In this document: one piece after another, positions 1,936 through 31,133 of the stretch | Layout: each line of letters begins with the position of its first letter | Position numbering within the stretch: position 1 is the first letter of the stretch | Assembly: GCF_025526975.1 (NCBI RefSeq) | Contig: NW_026515673.1 | Location: forward strand, 434,001-498,000 | Source: Fimicolochytrium jonesii | Taxonomy: Eukaryota | Reading direction: 5' to 3' | Length of the DNA: 64,000 nt | Notes under the pieces: model-generated | Seen by the model: only the letters and a program-made list of their open reading frames with translations | What the model was told of the DNA's origin: nothing | Database searches by the model: none | Translations under genes and position numbers: made by a program

Positions 1936-2370
1936 CTAGAATACATATGCTCGCTCTTCCGAGGCTTTTTCTTGTGAGCGAGCCCTTGAATCGCAGCATG
2001 GACGTCAAAAATGCGTCAATCCGACCTTTGTCTCTGTGTTCGCAAAATTCGACAGCGCGTCTCATGGGTGAGTGGATTTGAATGTGCATTATCCTCATTC
2101 TTTACTGTCCGCGACGTCCGTGTCCCCCACGTGACCGCATATTCCCTCTGATTCCTTCGTACCTTCCTACCCAGGGTGGTGTAAAAGCAAGCAAATCGAA
2201 ATCGTATGTGACCGTGTATCACAAAAAAGCCATGGCTTTCTGACAGACAGCCTTGGCTTTTTGACCGTTGACCTTCGAGGCTGCAAATCTGGCTGCAAAT
2301 GCACGACATGCCTGAACTTGGAAGGACATGTGGGCACAAACAGTGCAAGCTGGTAAGGCTGCGTCCCCCC

Positions 2371-2374
<4 letters not shown>

Positions 2375-2405
<31 letters not shown>
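2375..2405. repeat. (CA)n microsatellite
   Basis: About 15 perfect CA units. Confidence 0.95.
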
Positions 2406-2409
<4 letters not shown>

Positions 2410-2469
2410 CTCTTCTCACAGATAAGACTTCCTGCCACCGAGATTGCAATTGCGACGGATGTAATTGCA

Positions 2470-2847
2470 ATGGCCAATGGGGCCACCGACAGCGACAGTA
2501 ACAGCGACAATGTTGCCTGCATTGGGACCGGGGGGGACGGCAAAAAACCGAACGAAACAAGGGAGATGGTAGCAAAGAGGGTTCTGTTGGGGGGGTGGCT
2601 CTGGTGCGAGGGGAAGGGTGGCGTATGCGAACATGGGGGATGGTTCCACCGACTCTGCTGTATGAGCGCTGTTATCGAGAACCCTTGCTGGTGGTGTGAG
2701 GACTGTCGCCCCACCCGATATCACCGAAGAAGGATTTGGAAGGAATTAGAGGGAGCGATTGCTGCAGCGAAGGCAGCGAAGGGGGGCAATGCAGAGAATG
2801 CAAAAGGCCGAAAAGTGATTCTCCACATCATTGGATTGTCGCCAGCG
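2470..2847 (+). pseudogene. PHD-finger-like ORF fragment truncated by an LTR
   Basis: WLWCEGKGGVCEHGGWFHRLCC..PCWWCEDC matches the C-terminal part of a PHD finger (C..C..WFH..C..W.C..C). The reading frame runs into the LTR at 2848. Confidence 0.4.
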
Positions 2848-3016
2848 TGTTGTGGAACTCGTTACTTTTATTCCCCTTCACACACACACCACTCGCTTTA
2901 TAGACATTCGATCGGACGGTCTGCACACAACCACACCAGCTATTCTATCCCGAGAAGGAAAAAGGGGGTACGGTACTATAAAGGGAAGCTGTGGCTAAAA
3001 CAGGTTGTTTACAACA
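2848..3016 (-). mobile_element. 3' LTR of a Ty1/Copia element
   Basis: Bounded by TGTTGT (2848-2853) and ACAACA (3011-3016). On the minus strand it is preceded by the polypurine tract GAGAGGGAG (3025-3017) and contains CTATAAAG and AATAAA. Confidence 0.75.
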
Positions 3017-3184
3017 CTCCCTCTCAGACTGCAGATCGAATTCAGTTGCCGTCGAAGTCGCAGTCGCCATTGCTCCGCATCCTGATCTCATTGAACGCTC
3101 CGCTCTCAACTTCCGCGATCGCTTGAGTCCAGCGAGGAATAGTCGCCGGACTCGTGATTCGCTTTTCAAGTCACCTTCACGATT

Positions 3185-3292
3185 GCTTGAGGTGTAGCCT
3201 GGATATGGGCACTCGCATTCGTTCTTTCGACTTCCCGATCGCTTGAGGTGTAGCCTGGATATGGGCACTCGCATTCGTTCTCTTGACTTCCG
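3185..3292. repeat. 56-bp tandem duplication in the Copia 3' untranslated region
   Basis: GCTTGAGGTGTAGCCTGGATATGGGCACTCGCATTCGTTCT occurs twice with a 56-nt period and no unique spacer. Confidence 0.9.
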
Positions 3293-3445
3293 CCATCGCC
3301 TCGCCGTCATAGTCGTGGATGCCTCGGTAGAAACCTCTCCCAGTCGTAAAAACCTCCGTGAGGAAAAAATAGATCCTGGGACTAGGAAAAGAGCGCATTC
3401 ATATCAGGCAATATTGGCAGTTCGGCGTACTCGTCGTCGGCAACC

Positions 3446-4095
3446 CTAAGCAACATCGGCTGTTCGGCGCAATCCTAGAGCGTGAACAAACTTCCAGTGT
3501 TTGTTTTCATCTAGGGATTTGGTAAATATATCCGCAACGTTCGTTGTATATCCAGCGTCGTTGCGTCGGTTCTTTCGTCGAGCGGGCGAGACAGTGTACA
3601 GCAAAGGATATATCTGCGCGCGTGCAGTTGGCCAGGTACATCAACGCTCCTATGGCTGCGGCGTACAGTGTATCCACATCTAGGACAGCCTCATCGTCTT
3701 CTTTTGGTCGATATATGTCTTTGTTGCATGTTGTACTTCTGTTGTACTTCGTAGCTGATGAGGAATCGGAAAGCGATTGCGTCCATCACCGGTGAGTATG
3801 TATCCTCGTAGTCGATACCGTACGTCTGCGTGAACCCTTGCGCTACCAGGCGGGCTTTATAGCGGGATACTGAGCCGTCTGCATTTCTTTTTCGCACTAG
3901 AACAAATCTGTGACCGACGGGAACAACATCAGAAGGACATTCTTCAACTTTGTCAAATACCTCTCTCTTTTGCAAAGAATTCAGCTCTTCATCAATAGCT
4001 TGTTTCCATCTTGGCCAGTCCGGGCGTTTCATCGCTTCTTTGACGCTCCTAGGATCTGGGTCATCCGGCGCTGTGGCCAGCAGACACGCGGATGC
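3446..4095 (-). mobile_element. Ty1/Copia pol remnant (RT N-terminus, RT C-terminus and RNase H end) with two internal deletions
   Basis: DPRSVKEAMKRPDWPRWKQAIDEELNSL..RYKARLVAQGFTQTYGIDYEDTYSPV (RVT_2), then in shifted frames YAAAIGALMYLANCTRADISFAVHCLAR..PTQRRW and NVADIFTKSL..LGLRR*. The YVDD catalytic core, gag, integrase and 5' LTR are absent. Confidence 0.9.
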
Positions 4096-4227
4096 GATAC
4101 CCCACATCCTTTACACGCGTGTAAAAAACGCGGGGATCCCCACTCTACTCCTTCAACCCCATAACACAGCCATCACGGCAATCACCTGCATACACCTCAT
4201 CTCTAGCAGACACGCAAAAGGCACAGC

Positions 4228-7200
4228 ATGTCATCACACCAGGCGCTCCAGGGGTACCTGTGGTGTGGCATCTTTACTGGAGCAACCACACCACGGCGGA
4301 AGAGGAGGAAGGTTGCTCCAGTTACCCCACGGTTGCCCATACGTCTGCCACCCGCCGTGCAGACGCCATTGCAGCCCCCGCGCCCTCGATTCGAGTTCCC
4401 ACCATCTGTCCAGCGCCACTTGCCCGAAGCCATTGCAGACATGGTCAGCGAGAGTTCCGGCGATGACGACGGGCAGCACCAACAGCGAGGGCTTTCACCT
4501 GTGGAAAGGGGTCTGCAGCGTCCGTTGAACCTCCCCGCTCCTATCCCTTTCCCTTTTCCCAGCACACCGGGTAGATCCCTGGTGCTTGAACCCCCGCCTC
4601 CACCCCCGCCTCCACCCTCGCCTCCACCCCCTGCGCAACGACCCCGCCCGCAGACGCATGCCAGCACGAAGGTTTCCCTTCACAGAATCCATAATCACAA
4701 TCAAGTGCAAAGGGAGCGCCTGACAACCTTCCTCGGCAATGTTCACGTCCTTGCGCGCCACACCACGTTCTTTCTCAAGTACTACCTTGGTGAGTTTGTG
4801 AGGTACACTGTATATTTCCCATGAAACAATGTCCTGACTACTACGTCTGCCCACCGCAGCTGATCATCCTCTACGCGATTTCCTGGACATCACCAACAAG
4901 CACATTAGTGTGATATTTGAGCTGCTAAACAACCCCGGCTACAATGGCAGTCTGACCATCGCGCAAGAGTTGCGTCCATGGGTTCAAGAGTACTGTAATG
5001 TTCACGGATTCGCCCCAATCCACATGCAAGATTGCCAACAGACGGCGGCATACACAGCTCAGAGCATCTTCACCAACCTCAAAGTCAACGTACAGGAGCA
5101 TTTTCTGCAAATGCTTCTGCGCTACATCAATGAACGGCTTGGTTTGAAGCAAATTGTACTGCATCTCCGGAGAGCGCAGCGGCGACATTATTATCGTCGT
5201 GTCCGCCAATTCACAAAGTATGCGACATTTGAAGAGTACCCAACCGAAGAGGAGTTTGCCGGCCTCACACGACTTGAGCGGACTCTCCTCGACAAGTTAT
5301 GGGCTCTGTTTCCTCCCCAGGATGAACCACTTGCATACAGCCTTGCGGTGGACGCAATGCCATATTTAGGTGAGTTGCATCCTGTATATTCACACTCCCC
5401 CCTTCCCCCCCCCCCCCCCCCCCCCCCCAGCGCCTCGCTTGGTACGCCGACCTGGCCGAGTGGTTGCCTGCCGGGACCCCGGTCGACGTGGTGCGCGATG
5501 CGCTCTTGCCGATGGGCGCCTGCACGCTTGGCTCCTGCGCGCCCCGCCCCCCCCCCCCCCGCCCCTCCTCCCCCGCTTTGACGACGCCCCCACTGCGCGC
5601 ACAGCGGGCCCGGGGCGTGGCCGATGCTCTTGCCCACCGCCACGGCATCAACGTAACCATCGCCTACGATGTGTTCCCTGCTCGTCGAACATACCCCCCC
5701 CCCTTCGCTCCCCCCCCTTGGCTTCCTCTTTTGTCTGGTCATGGTCCACACCTGCCTCACCACAGGTGCCTATTGTGAGCTCTCACGCCTCTATGAGCGC
5801 CGTGGAATGCGGCTGTTTTCCGCTATCCCGCTGCGCAAATCTTGAATCCAGTCATCTGTTCGGATCGACACATTGATCCTAGGCCGTCATATCTTGGGCT
5901 TGAGCCAAAGTTGCATGGGGAAGTTCACTGATGAACGCAAGCGGGAGCTGTGGGGGCAGTTTCTCAATGTGAATGTAAGTTAAGTCTGTACCCTTCTGCG
6001 CTTATTTCAATTGCCCTGCTGAACGACGGGTTATAGGACAAGGTCTTCAAACATCGAAAGAAGCTTGGTCTCAAGTTCGATGGGTCAATTAGCACCAACG
6101 GGTATTCCGTTACCATCCACTTCAAGAAGCCAGGGCTCAAGCTCGGGTATCGGGCCCGGAAGCGCAGCAAGGCCCAAATGCAGGAAGAAGTCCAGCAGCT
6201 GTATTTTGAGCACCACATTGACGAATTAAGGGAGGCTCCAAACATCGTCTGCATTGATCCGGGCAAGCGTGACCTCCTGTTCCGTCGAGACATCGAGAAG
6301 GAGCGCCCATTTCGGTACGTTTTATTTCATTACTGCTTTTGACATTCTGTTGCATCATCCTCACAATGCACCATCCCATACCATACCAGATACACATCCA
6401 ATCAACGGGCGGTCGAGACAAAGTCGCGGTACTTTCAAAGAGACATGAGAGAGCGAAAGATCAATGCCGGCATCGCCGAGATGGAATCACATATTCCGTC
6501 GCACAAGAGCATGAAGATCGAGGCGTTCTCAGCGTTCATTGTGGATCACATACATGCAGGTATGATGTATTATGCATTGTCTTCAAATTCCATAATACAT
6601 GGGCTGACATCCATCCATATCCAGATCCCGCCCTAGATGAGTTTTACCGGGATGATATTCACGTCGCTTGCAGATTCAAGGCTTTCTCACTGCGGCAAAA
6701 GTCTGAGAGCAAGCTCATTAAGAACATGCGACGCCGGTATGGAAAGCATTTTTCGGTCGTCTTGGGTGATTGGAGCGATGCTGGGAAAACAACGCGCTTT
6801 CAGGAGTCATCAAAGACCAAGGGGTGAGTGACCATGATTGGTGGTATCTACTATGTATTCTATTATTCTAACTCATCATGGAAATTAGATTCCACACACT
6901 CTTTGCGAGAAACGGCATTCCATGCTACTTGCTGGATGAGTATCGAACGTCGTCCGTGTGCCCCAACTGCCACGGCCGTGTGAAGAAAAACATCCGACGC
7001 CGGCTGTCATCTCGGCCGTGGCAAGCTAGAAAGGGAAGAATGGAATTCGTCCATGGATTGGTGGGTTGCCCCAACCCCGAATGTATCAACCAAGACTGGA
7101 GGCCATTTGAGATTCCTGGAAGACGACCACTACGACTACGGATGAAAGTGCACAATCGGGACGTCCTAAGTACCAAGAATTTCCTCTCGATTGTGCGTTC

Positions 7201-7249
7201 GGTGGTGCTTGGCAATGGCAGACCAGACACATTCTCCCGTAACCAGTAG
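4228..7249 (+). pseudogene. Fanzor (Fanzor1-like, TnpB-derived RNA-guided endonuclease), 7 exons, about 762 codons, one in-frame TGA
   Basis: Exons 4228-4789, 4860-5369, 5766-5974, 6037-6314, 6390-6559, 6625-6823 and 6889-7249 join in frame at GT-AG sites (2289 nt). Motifs: FSAIPLRKS*IQSSVRIDT, FDGSISTNGYSVTIHF, RuvC-I CIDPGKRDLL (D at 6256), RYTSNQRAVET, VVLGDWS, RuvC-II LLDEYRTSSVCPNC (E at 6938), CPNPEC, RuvC-III HNRDVLSTKNF (D at 7160). TGA at 5843-5845. Confidence 0.9.
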
Positions 7250-7335
7250 TCTAGAATTTTCCGTGGTGGTTATCTGCCATCCACATCATTGTACCTCTGC
7301 CGGAGGCATCGCCGATGATGGCAACTTGTAAAAGT
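7250..7335 (+). ncRNA. Candidate Fanzor omega-RNA scaffold
   Basis: Lies immediately 3' of the Fanzor stop. Hairpin GTGG-TGGT/loop TATCT/GCCA-T-CCAC, then stem CATCATTG..CGATGATG enclosing CCTC-TGCCG-GAGG. The TGCC loop can pair with GGCA at 7320-7323 (pseudoknot). Ends are not defined. Confidence 0.6.
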
Positions 7336-7491
7336 GTGATTGGATTGGGCGTGACAGCAAATGTAGAAAGAAACGGAATTGATAGGAAGGTATCACTATA
7401 TAAACAAAATTGAGGGGTTGAAGGAACTGGATTCCCTCAAATCGGATGTGAATGAGTGCGTATGTGGTGCGGCTAGTTGCGGTGGTGTCGA

Positions 7492-10400
7492 TCATGAAGC
7501 TAGTCCAGACGTTCTCACGGATGAATTTGGTCGAGAATTACCGTCCGTGCCGCTTCCTAGCCGTTTCAGTAATAACGCGGGTGAGTTCGACCGCTCGGTT
7601 GCCGGTGATTGCTGGATGTCTTCGAGGCCGGACGAACTCCGTGGTATCGGTGTTATCGACGGCAGAGCGACTCGTAGCTTCTGCGCGGCCGCTACTGGTT
7701 CGGTGGGTAGAGATATCTGCCCAAAAGAGCGACGGTGTATCGACAGCCGAGGGCTGTCAGTCGCATATGACTTGTCAAAGTTTGGTGGCGGTAAAGGCTC
7801 GATCCAACTCTTAATACTGCCGCCCGAGGATGATTTCGGGATTTTCTTCCCCACCACTGGGTTTCCCCGATCGGGTGACCCTCGGCCTGCAGACCCCGCT
7901 CTAGCGCTCAAAAGCACATGCGGGCTGCTCATACGGCGGCCCACATCTCCCGGCCGCCGCGGCGAGTCCACCGTCACCCGTGGAAATGGTTCCGGACTGT
8001 CTTCTTCCGATATTGAGTGTGTTGAAGGCGGTTGCGCGCCAAAGGGCGGCGTCGATGGCGCAGCGATCTGAAAATCCTCGCGTTCCTCATCTGGCGGTGG
8101 ATGGAAAACGGGAACGGCGTCCGGTTTGTCTAATATCGACTCCCAATGGGATCGATTCTGCACAATCATGTCCATGCATTGACGCGAGAAACTCGTTGGA
8201 ATGCATTGTACCCAGGAGTCGAAGAGCGGGACTACCAGGACGTCGATGAACCCTATTTGACATTTGGGAATGTGCGTGTCGTACCGATCCATGAACTTCG
8301 ACACTGGCATGCCAAGCTTCCTTTCCCTGTCGCCCTGTGGATTGACGGGATCAGCACGAGGCCAGACCTTCGCTGCTACATTTTCCTGAAATTGCGTCGG
8401 CTCCGCTTACCTGGAGGAAAAACTCCTGCATGACTGAAAAGGCCCACTTGCGGGATTGCTCCAGTGGCTTGGCGGAGTTATTCAGGTCCGCGCACTTGAT
8501 GGCACACTCCAAGATGAGAGATCGATCCGACGGCTCCTCCCAGTTTAGCGCAGATGCCGCGATCTTTCCCTTCAACTTGTTAATGTAGTGGAAGTGCTGA
8601 GACATATCTAATTGTGCGAACAGGGTGAGATCGTGCAATGCTCAAGTGTTGCACAAAACCAAATTACCTGTCGCTGCCACCATACTGATGATCAGCTTTC
8701 GAGCTTCTCTATATTGCTCGTTTGACAGCCCAACAAACACATTGGTTTCTGGCCGCCGAGCAATCTCAAAGGCTTTCGCTGAGTGATGGAATTCGAGAAC
8801 AGACATGTCGTTATAAAATATCGCTAATGGGTGCGATGACTGTACAAGGAAGTTGTTGTTCAACCCCTGCCAAACCGACTAGCAGATTAGCACGCGGACT
8901 CCAGGAGGATTAGCCCACACATTCAGTCCACATATCGTGTTTTGCTCACCGGGTGATCTACATCATGAACGGCACTGGCTATACACGCCGCAAACACCTC
9001 CAGTTTGGTGAAGTTCGCGGCCATTTTTGGGTCGCTTAACAGTAGCATGTTGGAAGTTTGGAGAACGTCTGCTCCATGGGAGCTATTGTGATACGGTAAT
9101 GGATGGTACGAAGCCTCAATCTCCTGAAAGAACGCGCGGAGCTTCATCTCGTCCAGCGAGAAGTGCTGCACCAACCCCCAGTGGTGCAAGAGATGCACCC
9201 CTAGGAAGTATAAAGGGCGCCCATTGGTCGCTTCCGCAAGATCGTGGATGTTGAAATCAGCCGTTGTCGATTTTTTCAACAGCTCATTGACCCGGTCCAT
9301 ATTCATGGAGACTATCTCGGCCGCTGGTCGTGGAGTTGGCGCGCCGTCGGCTTTTATGGCGTGCTTCACCAATTCAAACTCATTCTTCGCAGCGAACATG
9401 TCCTCTTTGGCGTCGTTACCTCGACTCCGTCGCTGCTCTTTCTGCAAGAGAGAGTTTTCGATCCAGTTTTTTGTATCGGAATCGAGGCCTTTTCCCGTCT
9501 CGTCGTTGATCTCGTCGATATTCGAAGAGAAGAAGTCGGTTGAAGTCAGAGCTTTCATGATAAAATCGATCTGCTTTATGCCTGGGTCGCCCGGTGGCAG
9601 TCGGAACTTGAAGCTCTGCAACATATCGATCGTCTTCTTGATGGGTCCATCGAGATTATACCGTGGCGCTGCTTTTGAGCTGGAATCTTTTAGCGCTGCG
9701 GTGAGCTCGTTGTTCGTTTTCGCCAGTTTAGCGTTCTCGATCGACATTGAAGCAGCACTCATCAATGACTGTATGAGTTCAAGCCGGTCGCCGGTGAATG
9801 CGCCGGGCTGCAGATCATTCTCCAGGTACACTACCCCGGTCACGGCATTCTGATGCATGATGGGACAGCATAGAATGGACTTCGTTCCGCGCTCGGCAAT
9901 GTATGGATCCTTCCCGTACGTTTCATCGTGACTGGCGTCCGCTAACACGATCGGCTCCCTCGTTCGATAGACGTAATATACAACCGACAGCGGAACTCCT
10001 TCATCGCTAGAGGCTTGCTCGACGGGTACATGCTGCAATACCCGTTGAACTTCTTCGCCTTCATTAACAATGCCGATGGCCTCAATCATCAGTTTGCCAT
10101 CTTGACGGAGGACCAGCAATCCTTTCTCTGCACCAGCATTTTCCATAACGAACTTGATAATTTTCGTTAGCAGGGTTTCCAAGCTTGTCTCGTTGGTTAT
10201 AGATTGAGTCACTTTCAGTACTGTCGTCAAGTCGAGATCGACGGTATTTGAGCCCGCTTGTTCCGTTCCTTGAGAGCGCGTGGTCAGACCCGGCATCTGG
10301 CTGTTGAACCGGCTACTCGGCATCGCCTTGGTCAACAGATATAGATCCACCACATCCGGATATTTCGTCTGTAGATGCCGGCATTTTCCTTCGCTGCCCC

Positions 10401-13400
10401 ACGAATACCATAGAACGTAAGCATCATGAAGACATGCCCGAGCCAGGCGTTTTGATCCTTGTTGCAGCCAAAATCCACCGTACAGCTCTGTCGTCAGAGC
10501 TTCCTGCAACCGGAAACCATGGGCATGCGCTGAATCCAATGCCTCATCGTAATATCGGCGAGCGGCGGTAACGTTGCCAGCGATACGCTCCTAGAGAGAG
10601 GCTTTAGACTGCGGACTGACGAGCCACGAAGAAAGGAAGGCGCAAAGAAAGAAACACCCACCTTCTCTGCCGCTACCATCAGGAATTTACACATTATCTC
10701 ACTCGGAGGCTCTTCCGCATACCGTTTCACGATGGCGTACGCCTCATCGATCTCAGCTTGAAGAAGGGCTCTATCACGGTCTGGGCGATCCCACTCCCGT
10801 GCTGCAATCAAGGCTTGGAATACATAGAAGTCGATGTATCTAAGGAATATCGTGAGGCGAGATGAGTTTATGATCGAGCTGTGGGCCGTTCGACAAAAAT
10901 GCAAGAAATGAAGTACCTTGGAAGTCCGATATAGTGATTGGGACTATTCTCCTGTTTGTATTGCTCCAGGAGTGATCTTTGATCTTCCCGATCGTAAAGG
11001 TAGGCGTTTACCAGACGGTAGTAGTATACCATCGTGCGACTCATCCCCGTGGCCATGACATCGCGACGCTGGTAAACACATTCATTGCCAGTAGCCAGCG
11101 CCTCTAGCTCCGCCATTGTTCCCGCCCAGACGTTGAGAAAATAGCCTTTCATCTTCTCCATGAAAGGCCGGTGTCGTTCTTCCCAGTCTCTCCATGAGGA
11201 TGCCGGGCGACCGTATGACAACAGAATGCCGGGCCACGCCACCATTGCATAAATGAGCACGGAGTAATGTGCTGATTCCAAGCCCGACGTGATGCATCCG
11301 TCGATATTTGCTTCGAAGTCTTTAAAGGAGGCGACATACACGTAGCCATGCAGAGCAAGAGCAAGCCGTGCCCTCGCTTGAACCTCCGTACTTGCCCTGC
11401 CCAGAAGCGCAAAAACGAGCTCAGATAGCCACCGCATTCTGTTGAACCGTGGACCACCCCTAGCGGAGGTGAAGCTTCGAACGCTGTACGCAAACAAGAC
11501 AGAACTGTCCGGGCCTAAACCATTCTCCAATGCTCGAACACATCCCTGTGAAGATTCGTTAACAATTTCAAACCGGATAACAAATAGTGATAGCGCTCGC
11601 ATACCTTGAGATAGTAATACTGGGCTTGGCTGCTCAGCCCGAGGGAGTTTGCAGCGCCTCCAACATGGATGAGAATGATTTCGAGCCTTCCTGCCGTCGC
11701 ATCGGAGCAGCGAGGGGCAGACGCAACTTCCGCAACAGTACGCCCTTCAAGCAGCGTTTCCAACTTCGAGAACTCGATAGCAGCCAAGTCCTCAGCCTGC
11801 TGTTCGTTTTCAGGAGTAACTATTTGAAACGACTGAAGATCTTTTACGCCCATGCCGATGATATCGGTAAAGCGCCCTTGCACGTAGTATGCGATAACAA
11901 GCGTACTGTTAGCGATTAACTGATCCTTCGTCGACTTGGCTCGCTTGGCCATCCCGCGCAAGTGCATTTCCGCTTCGTCGTACAGTCCTTCCAAGATGGA
12001 TAATTGGGCAATGGCTAGGCAGGTATTAAACTTCAGCTCATATTGAGCATCCCACGCATTGCTATCATCTCCCAGAAGTCCTGCGGCAGTGTTCAGCATT
12101 CTTCGCGCCGCAAGCACTGATCCAGAACGTTTGACGCGGACGCCAGCCTCGTAATGCAGCCGGGCCGCATAATAGCGCTCCTCTGGATCTGTCAGCTTCT
12201 CCCAGATGCGGTTGTAGTGAGATACTACAGGGAATACGTTTTCCAGGACTTCTTCCTCCGTCATGGTCCGCCGAAGAACCCGCGCTATGTTGAGATGAGT
12301 AGCATCTCGCTCTTCCGCATCCATGAGGTTGTAGCATGCCTGATGCAGGCGGCTGTGACAGAACTGTGATGATGGGGAAAGCATATCAGGAAATGTATCG
12401 CAAATGAATATGGTCATTAGCGATGGGCCTTACCCTGTATGCCAGCACCATTTCACCCACAGACTGCCGTGAGTTCATGATCCCCAGAGACATAGACGAC
12501 CGATGGCCAAGACGCTGAGATGTTACAGAACCCGACGAACTCCGCGACATCGTTGAATTTCCGCGAATGAGCACTTCATTATGAGGCTGAGCTAGAATGA
12601 ATCCTTCTTTGACAGCCGGCCACAGGTCGGTGGCCAATTGCACAATGCTACTTTCCGATATGAGAGAAAGTAAACGAAGATCGAAGCCATCCCCGATGCA
12701 TGCTGATAAAGGGTTATGAAAAATAAGTGAATATGGGCAAGAATGCAGCTCAACAAGCGCTTCAAAGAAAGCTTACCTCCCTGCTGAAGTAGCTTCTGCG
12801 TCTCTGGGCTGAACTGCCTCAATCTCGTCAGGAGCAGCTCCGCCACATTATCGCTCAAGACAGACTGCCGATCCATCTCCTGTATGTCCCAAGACCACCC
12901 TCCAGCGACGTCATCAAAATAAAGGAGACCATGCTGTTCCCCGTAGCGTAAGAACTCGCGGATATGGAAAGGATTTCCCATTGTTTTTCGATAGAGTAAC
13001 GCAGCAAGCTGGTCAACATCCTCGACGGCTGGCTTCAGCGTATCGACCAAGATATCACGAATTCCCGACATTGGCAAGGGCCCGAGCTCAATCTTCCGCA
13101 ATCGCTGTGGCGCCTCAAACTGTATTCGCTGAACGGTTGGACCATATGCATTGCTCAGCGGGCCGCCACTGTGAGGCTGCGTCGCCACTATCAGCAGGTG
13201 TGAGATCTTTTTATCGAACAGAATAGCTTGAAGGAGTTTTTGCGAAGCTGCTTCTGCATACTGCATGGGATTGCACCATTAGCAAGGCTGACAGCGCTTC
13301 ATAGGGTAACAAATTCGAACAATTTTACCTGCAAATCGTCCAAAAATACCACTAACGGGTTCTCCACCTGAGCAAAAACTCCGATCAAAGCCTGCATGGC

Positions 13401-15495
13401 TCTGATGAAGGAGTTCTGCTCCGCCGATTGAGCATCAAACTGCTCCGTCGCGTCTTTTTGTGTTCCCACTATCATCTCCAAATCGGGCAAGACGTCGGTC
13501 ACTATGGAAAGGTAATTGGAACCTAGCGATGTCGTCAATTGAGATTGCCATCTTTCCAAGATCCTCGCCGGCTCGGATAGAAGCTGCCGAATCAGCATGT
13601 CAAGCGCTTCGACAAGTCCACCATATGGGCGATCGCCTTTGTATTGGGAGTATTGACCATGAACTGAACAGTAGAAATGAGCTTCCGAGCGGTCAGCCGA
13701 GTTCACTGTCAAGGGCACATACCGAAGAACCCGTTTTGTGCAATCACATGCTTCCTAAGATGGCTGATCAAGGAGCTCTTTCCTTCTCCACTAGACCCAA
13801 TGATGAGGCAAAGCTCGCTACGGCTCCGCCCGGTGGCAATATTGTGATACGCCGTCATCAGCTCTTTCATCTCCCTCTCGCGTCCATACAGCTTATCCGG
13901 AACGTTGAGGTTGTGCGAGTGATCCTTTTGACCAACTTGGAAATTGAACCCATCGAGTATCGCGATCACGTCCGCATCTGATAATCTGGATAGGGCAGAG
14001 ACTTTTCTTGACGCTTTCTCCTTCTGGAGTTGGTGGAAACATTGCATGAGATCCCAGCGGAGCCCGGCGCTCGACTGATAGCGAGTTTCAGGTGCTTTGC
14101 TGGCAAGCTGTTAAAAAAAACAAAAAGGTCAACAGGAAAAAAAGATGCAGCAGTACATGCCACTCCTCCCACTCAACATACCCGCATGACAATGTCCACG
14201 AATATTTGCGGGATTGCGTCGTTATAAAGTCGAGGCGACTCGACCTCCTTCGCCAAATGAGCATGCACGTACTCCTACAAAGCCACAGATAATGAGCGAC
14301 TTTGTATATATCCCACAAAGCCTTGCAATCAGACGCTTGCTTACCGTGGCATCTTCGAACTGAAATGGAGGTTGTCCGACCAGAACCTCCCACAGCGTGA
14401 GTCCCAGACTATAGAAATCTGCAGCCCCAGGGAATTGTCAGAATTCTTGCGACACCCTGCGTCCCCAGTCGACGGCAATTCCTCACCTGTCCTATAATCG
14501 ACAATTCGTTGCATTCGCCCTGTTTGCTCTGGGGACATGTAGGCAAGAGTGCCTTCGAGGTAACCCCTCGTCATCTGATTCCCCATGTCTGTGACTTCAG
14601 ACAGATTGAAGTCAATCAGCTGGACGCCCAAATGTGGGCCTGTCCTTTTCACCACGATATTGTCGGGGTTGATATCCTTATGCATGACTTGTGCGGCATG
14701 CACAATCTCAAGAGCCTCCGCTAGCTGCGTCGCTATGCTCAAAAACTCCTCCAGTCCAATCTGCCGGTTTTTGCGACTAAACTTCTCACGACTGCCATCT
14801 TTGAATTTGGGTCCCCCATTTCCAGCGTCGCTGTCCGCCGCTGACCCAGGAACTGATGAGTTTCCTGGCCTGCTGCTCTCAGTAGGCTTTGATAGGGCGA
14901 ATTCTCTCAGAGATACGCCCCCATAATCTTCCAACACTAGTATCAACTGCCCGTTGAGATCTTCTACCGAAATTGGCTTGATGACTCTATCCGACAGTGC
15001 CCCTTCTATGGATTCGTGGGTCAAGCTGGTGCTCCGCGGCCTCCGCCCGGTCGTAAAACCTTTGCGTTCAGATGGTGGCGGAGGTGTAGGACCCGAACTG
15101 TACATGTGTTGCTCCTCGGTGACGGCTTCTAGTTGCTGACAGCGTGATTGCTGGGTATTTGATGAGAATGATGGAGAACCGGACCCCTGCCCAGACGCCT
15201 TATAGTAATGGTATCGCGGAGATTGCGTCGAATGACCCCCGCTTGATTTGCTAACTCCAGACCCTTTCGTCCTCGATGCTTCGAGTTCCGCGAGGTTGGC
15301 ATGGATATGTTTCAGTAATTCGTACTCGTGCTTGAGTTTGATATTCTCTTCCTCGTCGTAGAAAGCATTCCCTTTGCATATCACGGTTTCATTTGGATTG
15401 TCATTTCGCCGCGCCCGTTGGATAATAAGCGAAGTGCGTGAATTGTAATGGAGCACCGTCGCATTTGTAAATCCAGGGAGCTTTATGCTGTCCAT
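7492..15495 (-). CDS. Ser/Thr kinase - AAA/STAND ATPase - helical region - GAF - class I cyclic-nucleotide phosphodiesterase fusion protein (multi-exon)
   Basis: Kinase: HKDINPDNI, LIDFNLS, GTLAYMSPEQTGRM..DYRT|DFYSLG. Walker A GSSGEGKS, Walker B LVVFLDDLQ, GNPFHIREFL. GAF: DLDLTTVLKVTQSI..KSILCCPI..VVYLEN..IENAKL. PDE: YHNSSHGADVLQ, HDVDHPG|LNNNFL, SVLEFHH, AT|DMSQHF, IKCADLNN, EFFLQ|GDRE, CQIGFIDVLVVPLF. GT-AG junctions checked in the kinase C-lobe and PDE join in frame. Confidence 0.88.
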
Positions 15496-16333
15496 GTTGG
15501 CAGTTGACCCTCCGCGGTGTTCATGTAGGGTGAAAATTAACGAGTTTTGGATAGAGAAGAGGAATCCCTCGTAATGAATTCGTGAGGAGAGCTACGAGAG
15601 GCGTATCATGCAGTATTGGCTCCTTTGATTAGCACCCCTCACCCTTGGTATTCTTCCCAAACTGGAAAAGGGTTACGTCTGTTTTTCGGAACCGGTCGGT
15701 TTGAAGTTTGGACCACTTCCTGCCCTGCTTACGCGATGGTCGATTGAGCGTTGCGTTAATAGCAGCCTCCCGAAAGCGGACTACGTTTTGGTGTATTGGT
15801 CTGCGACCCGAAATGAAAAGCTGACGCCGGGCTGCGACCGGAGGGAGATGCGAAGGGGACAATATGGAAGGGACGATATCTTAATTCCGCTTCTGCCGAA
15901 AAAGATCGAGAAGGGTATATGTATGGGCTCTGGAGACGCCTGAAATCGAACTCGCACTAGAGTTTCTTGCTCTACGCTTTGCTGCGAAATCCAATCGACC
16001 ATGGAACACTTGTGAGGGAAGGTTCCACGTAACGCAATTAACGTTTTGCGCCGTATCGCAGAACGCAGAAAATGCGGTAATGGGGGCGGAGTTGCACATT
16101 CTCACGCGTTCCCCCTTACCCTTACTTACCCCATGCTCAGCGGTTCATGACAAGAGTTCACGTGCTACAAGTTATTTGTGTTTATGTATGTAGCTCGTAC
16201 TTTCTACGCGTGACAAGGCGTGAACTTGTTTACGTAGTTTACTCGTTTATTGACCGTATAAAAGGTCAGCATTGCATGGCGTTTAGGGTTTTAGTATTTG
16301 AACAGCTTTCTTCGTCGAGATCATCCAGCAATA

Positions 16334-30285: not shown

Positions 30286-31133
30286 AAGAACGCGCGGAAA
30301 CTTTCGAGCCCCCATTTGACCCCGTCACCCCGCCACCATCCAGCTGTACCTCGATCTCGAGGGGTTCAACTGAGCAATTGTATCTTGCGCGGAAGGCAGT
30401 CTCCCACTAGTGGTCTTCGCGCTGGGAGGTCTGGGGGTAGGGTTGCCGTTATCCCCTTTGCGACGCTTGTGGGCCTCCAACCTAGCGAGCTTGGCGCGGG
30501 TAGCTGCGAGTGCAGCTTCGATATCCTGGTTGCCGGCAAGGTCCTGAGAGCCCGGCTGCGGGTCCTCCCCATCGGGGCCAGCTCCTTCTTCATCGTCGCG
30601 GCGGCGTACACGGGTCTGGGGCTCGGTGTTCCCGGCTTCGTTCTCTGGGGCTGGTAGGCCATCGTCGGCGGCTGACATTCCCACGCTATATATGACGGCA
30701 CCTCGGCGCAATTTTCTCAGGCTATCGTCTCGCCGAGCGTTCGGACGTAACTTGGCAAGGCCGGGTGACGACGGTAGACGTGGGTGTATCTTGGCTATCG
30801 CGAGTGCCCAGATCCAGGCTGCACCTCAAGCGATTTCTCTTTCTCGAATCGCTAAGATTATGGCTGAGCGCACGAATAAAGGTAAGGAAGGGGAAAAGGA
30901 GAAGGAAGGTATCCTGAAGGACTATAAATCCGAGAACGAGTCACGTGCACGCTCAGCCTGGGTTTTATCCACACATGCACCCGAGGGTGAATATTCTCCA
31001 GGAGGTCACCCCGACCCGCGCCCCCGCCCCCCCCCCCCCCCCCGGGCCTCCCCACCCCCGCCTCCTCCTTTGCACGCAAGAAAGACACTATACAGTATTA
31101 ATAGGCCCCCCCCCCCTCGCTTGTACCTCCCCC

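What the first reader, a model, noticed from the sequence alone, without database searches (positions are those of the whole stretch)
4228..7249. Six-intron Fanzor RNA-guided nuclease gene hidden from the ORF track
Seen: seven exons splice in frame to about 762 codons with RuvC-I (IDPG), the RuvC-II glutamate just before the zinc finger (DEYRTSSVCPNC), CPNPEC and RuvC-III (NRD). Known: these motifs define Fanzors, the eukaryotic TnpB/Cas12 relatives that cut DNA using an omega-RNA guide, and the Glu next to the Zn finger is the Fanzor-type arrangement. Inference: this is an intron-rich fungal family member with no adjacent transposase. Automated annotation would probably miss or fragment it, and its TAM is unknown.
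Basis: partly seen in the sequence, partly recalled or inferred. Interest (0 to 1): 0.88.

Follow-up and report, generated by a model that had tools for sequence, protein, structure and literature searches.

The report
Dead six-intron Fanzor with guide RNA
This is a six-intron chytrid-fungus gene for a Fanzor, a known type of RNA-guided DNA cutter; this copy is broken by an early stop, but its family has a full-length relative and the copy still carries its predicted guide-RNA scaffold.

Summary
Seven exons joined at six GT-AG introns give 762 codons, with one internal TGA at codon 384. All six junctions align without gaps to family gene models. The protein is 44% identical to Spizellomyces SpuFz1 and keeps the RuvC triad D501/E660/D734. 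An 89%-identical full-length paralogue folds like SpuFz1 (Z 38.6, rmsd 2.7 A). It is a Fanzor1 of the SpuFz1 clade, from a multicopy, mostly broken family whose models are named Fimicolochytrium jonesii. This locus is annotated only as a 288-aa fragment. The stop replaces an Arg and a DNA-unwinding Tyr is lost, so this copy is very likely dead. Together they predict a 3.17-kb non-autonomous element and a CATA-like TAM. The ends rest on one copy, and no reads were available. Intron-bearing Fanzors are already published. Verdict: new member of a known kind; interest 0.4, not 0.88.

The parts
4228..4789 (+). Exon 1: about 130-aa Pro-rich extension with a basic RRKRRK cluster (possible NLS, inferred), then the start of WED/REC
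   Evidence: 25% Pro in residues 1-135; paralogue model pLDDT <50 over residues 1-119
4860..5369 (+). Exon 2: REC domain, with the TAM-contact helix (Q247, Q248, A251)
5370..5765 (+). Intron 2, 396 nt, 70% GC, with three poly-C runs; probably carries a foreign insert of about 320 nt of unknown origin
   Evidence: no homologue found
5766..5974 (+). Exon 3, containing the premature stop
5843..5845 (+). In-frame TGA at codon 384; Arg in 14 and Gln in 1 of the 15 family models that match this stretch
6037..6314 (+). Exon 4: WED end (L463 where 8 of 8 paralogues and SpuFz1 have Tyr) and RuvC-I D501
6390..6559 (+). Exon 5: RuvC helical insertion
6625..6823 (+). Exon 6: RuvC-II region (GDWSDAG)
6889..7249 (+). 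Exon 7: shifted catalytic E660, zinc finger, RuvC-III D734, stop
   Evidence: weak Pfam Cas12f1-like_TNB hit, E 0.0029, below its cut-off
7256..7330 (+). Predicted 75-nt omega-RNA scaffold and right end, ending in TA
   Evidence: Motif unique in the window, 0.04 expected; 14 of the first 19 nt and the core stem-2 pairs are in register with the SpuFz1 scaffold (by eye); hairpin predicted but fold energy not unusual, z -0.6
7331..7345 (+). Predicted 15-nt guide read from flanking host DNA (inferred)
   Evidence: Analogy to SpuFz1; no CATA-flanked target in the window
4160..4183 (+). Predicted left end: CATA followed by a degenerate inverted copy of the right end (core 4169-4182)
   Evidence: the repeat alone is not significant (65 of 958 control windows score as well)
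4149..4160 (+). Outer 12-nt perfect inverted repeat, left arm (right arm 7414-7425); rival element boundary
   Evidence: (6 of 590 random pairs reach 12 nt)
3507..4110 (-). Broken Ty1/Copia reverse-transcriptase remnant directly upstream; not a transposase for this element
   Evidence: Pfam RVT_2 E 1.7e-15

Best explanation
This is a six-intron Fanzor1 gene of the SpuFz1 clade with a stop at codon 384, likely a dead copy of a transposase-less DNA element (predicted 4162-7330) that still carries its predicted guide-RNA scaffold. Intact family members would work like SpuFz1. The spliced 760-aa protein would enter the nucleus and bind a 75-nt RNA transcribed across the right end, plus about 15 nt of flanking DNA as guide. 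It would read a TAM, predicted as CATA or a relaxed form of it, and cut both strands with D501/E660/D734, favouring spread or retention of the element, which would be moved by a transposase encoded elsewhere. Shown here: exon structure, stop, homology, catalytic residues, fold of the paralogue, scaffold motif. Inferred: splicing in vivo, element ends, guide, TAM, cleavage, trans-mobilisation, loss of function.
For: Family: 17 of 33 hits are F. jonesii-named models, 13 S. punctatus, 3 unnamed; 11 more F. jonesii-named members. The window model is 87-91% identical to 8 of 8 paralogues compared and 44.4% to SpuFz1. Paralogue P0003 hits PDB 8GKH at E 1.5e-133 and PpFz1 at 1.9e-34. The P0042 model has pLDDT 83.7 and matches SpuFz1 at Z 38.6, rmsd 2.7 A over 577 residues. 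Decay: TGA where 14 of 15 models have Arg; 15 private changes at columns invariant in paralogues, including the Y345 equivalent; only 2 of 31 family models hold all six marker motifs. RNA: motif 8 nt after the stop, unique in 64 kb. SpuFz1 contact bases U5, C6, C7, U16, U18, C19, U35 and A75 are kept in register, and pairs 35-75, 36-74, 37-73 and 38-72 all still form, two unchanged and two with both bases changed (by eye). The end-to-end alignment of the right end puts the terminal TA on CATA 4160-4163, as in Spu-1.
Against: The inner inverted repeat is weak: 65 of 958 (local) and 301 of 958 (end-to-end) control windows score as well, and its terminal bases mismatch. The scaffold fold is no more stable than shuffles (z -0.6), and the predicted fold puts a different stem 2 at 7284-7320. 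A stronger 12-nt repeat lies further out. G20 of the SpuFz1 loop is shifted by one base. The motif was defined after I had seen the sequence. TAM contacts R96 and N133 are not kept, so CATA may not be the TAM. Only 13 of 27 SpuFz1 RNA-contact residues are identical. The stop could not be checked against reads.
Confidence: 0.8

Rival explanations
1. Same Fanzor pseudogene, but the element ends at the outer repeat (about 4130 to 7438), giving a scaffold of about 180 nt, perhaps with an internal insertion or intron, and a different TAM.
For: Perfect 12-nt inverted match, 6 of 590 random pairs reach it, and it occurs nowhere else in the window. A further 8-of-10 match lies just outside it (by eye). 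The outer and inner repeats lie in the order expected of one long repeat. Fanzor1 RNAs vary from 75 to 150 nt.
Against: The 75-nt register, terminal TA, core stem pairs and upstream CATA all fit the inner ends. The extra stretch has only a weak donor (GTAAAA) and no good acceptor at the needed place (by eye). It lies just downstream of the neighbouring phosphodiesterase gene's stop on the minus strand and may be its 3' UTR.
Confidence: 0.12
2. The TGA is a sequencing or assembly error and the gene is intact and active.
For: It is the only frame break in 762 codons, the triad and zinc finger are intact, and the poly-C-rich intron 2 hints at a difficult region.
Against: A C-to-T change in an Arg CGA codon would explain it (the ancestral codon is inferred). 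There are 15 other private substitutions, including loss of the unwinding Tyr, and most family models are broken.
Confidence: 0.06
3. The locus makes a functional 288-aa C-terminal RuvC protein (the annotated model), or the TGA is read through.
For: The 288-aa model exists in public annotation, and other family models of 288-290 aa start at the same Met.
Against: The fragment lacks REC and most of WED, which hold the guide and TAM in SpuFz1. Shared starts are what gene finders do with broken copies (inference). Paralogues have Arg or Gln at the TGA, with no sign of a recoded residue.
Confidence: 0.02

Closest known systems
SpuFz1 / Spu-1 element, Spizellomyces punctatus (Saito 2023 PMC10432273; Bao and Jurka 2013 PMC3627910; PDB 8GKH, 9CEU-9CEZ)
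   Same: 44% identity, same fold, same triad, multicopy with many partial copies, no transposase inside the element, 75-nt scaffold just after the stop, CA+TA at the left end (predicted here).
   Different: Six introns against a single ORF; about 130-aa disordered N-terminal extension; about 3.2 kb against 2.1 kb; degenerate rather than well-kept 30-nt repeats; N385 is Gly, N133 is Ala and R96 is not kept across most of the family; this copy has a stop.
PpFz1, Parasitella parasitica (Xu 2024 PMC11423790; PDB 9CF0-9CF3)
   Same: Fanzor1 fold (Z 35.0, rmsd 3.8 A), DPG at RuvC-I, GUUAUC loop motif, 4-bp stem 2.
   Different: 26% identity; PpFz1 has an insertion of about 110 residues in RuvC that this family lacks.
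Intron-containing Fanzors, e.g. CrFNuc of Chlamydomonas (Jiang 2023 PMC10530073)
   Same: Spliced gene, predicted NLS, rearranged RuvC-II glutamate; densities up to about 9.6 introns/kb are reported, against 2.6 per kb of coding sequence here.
   Different: CrFNuc sits in Helitron2 elements and showed no cleavage in that study; this element has no transposase and belongs to the SpuFz1 clade.

Membership tests
Fanzor1 | Eukaryotic TnpB homologue with DPG at RuvC-I, Glu shifted next to the zinc finger, and RuvC-III Asp | tested here: met
   D501, E660, D734 align with SpuFz1 D383, E541, D606 (residues)
Fanzor1 | Zinc finger (CxxC...CxxxxC) between RuvC-II and III | tested here: met
   CPNC 667, CPNPEC 703; four Cys at least 90% conserved in 97 sequences
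Fanzor1 | Enlarged REC/WED bilobed fold | tested here: met
   Tested on the 89%-identical paralogue P0042, not on the window's own protein: Z 38.6, rmsd 2.7 A, 577 residues to 9CEZ; best non-Fanzor Z 11.4
Fanzor1 | Intact reading frame | tested here: not met
   TGA at codon 384 in this copy; met by P0042. This lowers 'working enzyme', not descent.
Fanzor1 | Omega-RNA scaffold downstream of the ORF, overlapping the right end | tested here: inconclusive
   Motif and register fit; fold not significant; no Rfam match; one copy only
Fanzor1 | Expression of the omega-RNA and splicing of the mRNA | not testable with these tools
   No run was listed
Fanzor1 | RNA-guided, TAM-dependent dsDNA cleavage | not testable with these tools
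   Needs an assay
Spu-1-like non-autonomous element | About 30-nt terminal inverted repeats, TA duplication, CA upstream of the left end | tested here: inconclusive
   TA at both inferred ends and CA upstream, but repeat score not above background
Spu-1-like non-autonomous element | Multicopy, no transposase within the element | tested here: met
   28 F. jonesii-named models; no transposase Pfam hit in 197 ORFs; short exons under 110 aa were not scanned

The most novel reading that the evidence does not exclude
The full-length members of this family are active, six-intron Fanzor1 nucleases with a relaxed or altered TAM, since two of SpuFz1's TAM-reading residues are replaced across the family. 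Dead copies such as this one still supply guide RNAs in trans, an intermediate step on the way to protein-less 'ghost' elements.
Probability: 0.2. Interest if true: 0.6.

Novelty: new member of a known kind. Interest (0 to 1): 0.4.

Why it matters
It hands over a ready test set close to the best-studied Fanzor: a full-length 761-aa paralogue (P0042), a predicted 75-nt scaffold and a predicted TAM. A natural SpuFz1 relative lacking the N133 and R96 contacts would show how Fanzor TAM choice evolves and might widen targeting range. The six intron positions (SpuFz1 residues about 65, 244, 311, 401, 458, 524) are not shared with the two introns of a metagenomic relative (about 164 and 585), and SpuFz1 has none, which points to independent intron gain within one clade. 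The window copy itself is ordinary transposon decay.

Tried and rejected
No whole genome was held and no RNA holder or other run was listed, so the stop, splicing and paralogue flanks were not checked at DNA or RNA level. The metagenome scan gave 4 loci from 310 candidates, all distant (36-42%), two nearly identical to each other; none shares flanking DNA with the window. The viral scan gave 0 of 133. An exact search for the scaffold motif in viral contigs gave 4 loci, none with a Fanzor, taken as chance. A gapped alignment of the whole flanks did not single out any repeat (920 of 2000 shuffles scored as well). No clear terminal repeat was found in L001; by eye L001 has a similar TTTTCC-hairpin start after its stop, but with a different loop. 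Intron calls in L004 were ambiguous and were dropped. Rfam: 0 matches. The Pfam copy in the scan tool gave no family even for SpuFz1, so its silence is uninformative. The first fold (13 sequences) was poor, pLDDT 50.4, though its 7 hits with E<=0.001 were all Fanzors; the second (97 sequences) was used. The intron-2 insert gave no protein homologue (weak test) and no copy in the window; the atlas look-up did not complete. Four extra residues named in Xu 2024 (Q152, N159, R514, R631) did not match P0028 numbering and were not used. The Copia remnant was rejected as mobiliser: it is a broken retro-element outside the inferred ends.

Full report
Observation. The seven exons are there. Joined at six GT-AG introns they give 762 codons and a TAG, with all the named motifs at the expected places and one internal TGA at codon 384, window 5843-5845. 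Five introns are 62-75 nt; intron 2 is 396 nt and 70% GC. The neighbours are ordinary fungal genes: a kinase-AAA-GAF-phosphodiesterase gene downstream on the minus strand and a Zn2Cys6 factor further on. None of 197 ORFs of 110 aa or more has a DNA-transposase Pfam hit; a broken Copia reverse transcriptase lies just upstream.

Family. Exon 2 found 33 proteins: 17 named Fimicolochytrium jonesii (15 of them at 79-86% identity), 13 Spizellomyces punctatus and 3 unnamed. Cluster look-up added 11 more F. jonesii-named models, among them the 761-aa P0042. The window model is 87-91% identical to the 8 paralogues compared and 44.4% to P0028, which clusters with the SpuFz1 construct. All six junctions align without gaps to P0042 and P0043. 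P0041 (288 aa) is exactly residues 475-762 of the model, so the window very likely comes from F. jonesii and this locus is annotated only as an unnamed C-terminal fragment. These models are predictions, not RNA evidence.

Membership. A paralogue hits SpuFz1 (8GKH) at E 1.5e-133 and PpFz1 at 1.9e-34, the only 2 PDB sequence matches. The AlphaFold model of P0042 (pLDDT 83.7, residues 1-119 disordered) matches SpuFz1 at Z 38.6, rmsd 2.7 A over 577 residues, then PpFz1 (35.0) and GtFz1 (23.7); the best Cas12 is at 11.4. D501, E660 and D734 align with the SpuFz1 triad D383, E541, D606. N385 is Gly in all 8 paralogues, as in PpFz1. Among SpuFz1's TAM contacts, Q129 and Q130 are kept; N133 is Ala in 6 of 6 paralogues covering it; R96 is Gly in 4 of 5, in a loop where the alignment is uncertain.

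This copy is probably dead. At the TGA, 14 of 15 matching family models have Arg and one has Gln. The copy has 15 private changes at columns invariant in the paralogues, including Leu for the Tyr that starts DNA unwinding in SpuFz1. A stop in exon 3 of 7 removes the whole RuvC domain. Only 2 of 31 family models carry all six marker motifs, although some of that may be mis-modelling. A sequence error cannot be excluded, because no genome or reads were available.

Guide RNA and ends. The SpuFz1 RNAs listed by Saito (supplement 5) begin TTTTCC or TTATCC, a short stem, then GTTRTC. That pattern occurs once in the 64-kb window, at 7257-7274, 8 nt after the stop; 0.04 matches are expected. I chose the pattern after seeing the sequence. 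Numbering from 7256, 14 of the first 19 nt equal SpuFz1's, position 74-75 is TA as in SpuFz1, and the four core stem-2 pairs (35-38 with 72-75) still form, two of them with both bases changed. Saito shows that the region 40-70 is dispensable. These comparisons were made by eye. The reverse complement of the last 30 nt aligns to 4162-4190 with its terminal TA on a CATA, the Spu-1 arrangement of CA before the left repeat. Against this: the repeat is no better than 65 of 958 control windows, the fold is not unusually stable (z -0.6), and a perfect 12-nt repeat at 4149-4160 and 7414-7425 offers other ends. I put about 75% on the inner ends.

Mechanism. By descent from SpuFz1, an intact member would load the right-end RNA with a 15-nt flank-derived guide, read a TAM and cut dsDNA with its RuvC triad. 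Saito proposes, without proof, that this helps transposons persist, possibly in trans. Cleavage, TAM, expression and mobilisation are all inferred here. The single insertion site predicts CATA; the changed contacts suggest the TAM may be looser.

Literature seen. Saito 2023 (PMC10432273): passages, sections 7 and 10, part 1 of 2 of supplement 5, and term searches of the supplements. Jiang 2023 (PMC10530073): passages and a supplement term search; it reports intron and NLS gain in Fanzors. Bao and Jurka 2013 (PMC3627910), Xu 2024 (PMC11423790), bioRxiv 10.1101/2023.08.09.552727 and PMC12247965: passages only. 'Fanzor + Fimicolochytrium' found one paper, where Fanzor appears only in the references; 'Fanzor1 + chytrid' found only Saito; 'Fanzor + intron' listed 25 of 75. 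The species name was not found in either supplement set, but that is weak: the Jiang files did not even contain 'Spizellomyces', two Saito files could not be read, long cells are cut, and bioRxiv supplements were not seen. The family may sit in those tables under accession numbers.

Verdict. A real, well-spotted gene model and a true Fanzor1, but a broken copy of a known kind. Its value lies in pointing to an untested intron-rich sister family of SpuFz1 with a full-length member, a predicted scaffold and altered TAM contacts. Interest 0.4.

Noticed in passing
window 5370-5765: Intron 2 holds about 320 nt of 70% GC sequence bounded and split by poly-C runs (24, 14 and 10 nt), with a 134-codon open frame that is not the Fanzor frame. 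It could be an insertion or an assembly chimera; no homologue was found.
   Followed up: partly
window 3507-4110 (-): Broken Ty1/Copia reverse-transcriptase remnant that stops about 50 nt before the inferred Fanzor left end, next to an imperfect palindrome at 4100-4135.
   Followed up: partly
window 3175-3299 and 30800-30834: A 56-nt tandem duplication whose unit also matches 35 nt at 30800-30834 on the other strand (91-94%); perhaps a small dispersed repeat.
   Followed up: no
window 7492-15591 (-): Large multi-exon gene with kinase, AAA_16, GAF and cyclic-nucleotide phosphodiesterase domains; its 3' end faces the Fanzor right end, so the predicted guide may be antisense to its 3' UTR.
   Followed up: no
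L001 3695-5925: Metagenomic SpuFz1-clade Fanzor with two GT-AG introns at different positions and its own unrelated N-terminal extension; a TTTTCC-hairpin follows its stop at 5944.
   Followed up: partly
P0029, P0047-P0052: A cluster of seven 630-aa SpuFz1-like proteins on metagenome contigs of only 2.1-2.4 kb, about the size of a whole Spu-1-type element.
   Followed up: no
window 2082-3126 (+): Cys-rich open frames without Pfam hits (for example CEGKGGVCEHGGWFHRLCC); possibly a zinc-binding gene or another decayed element.
   Followed up: no
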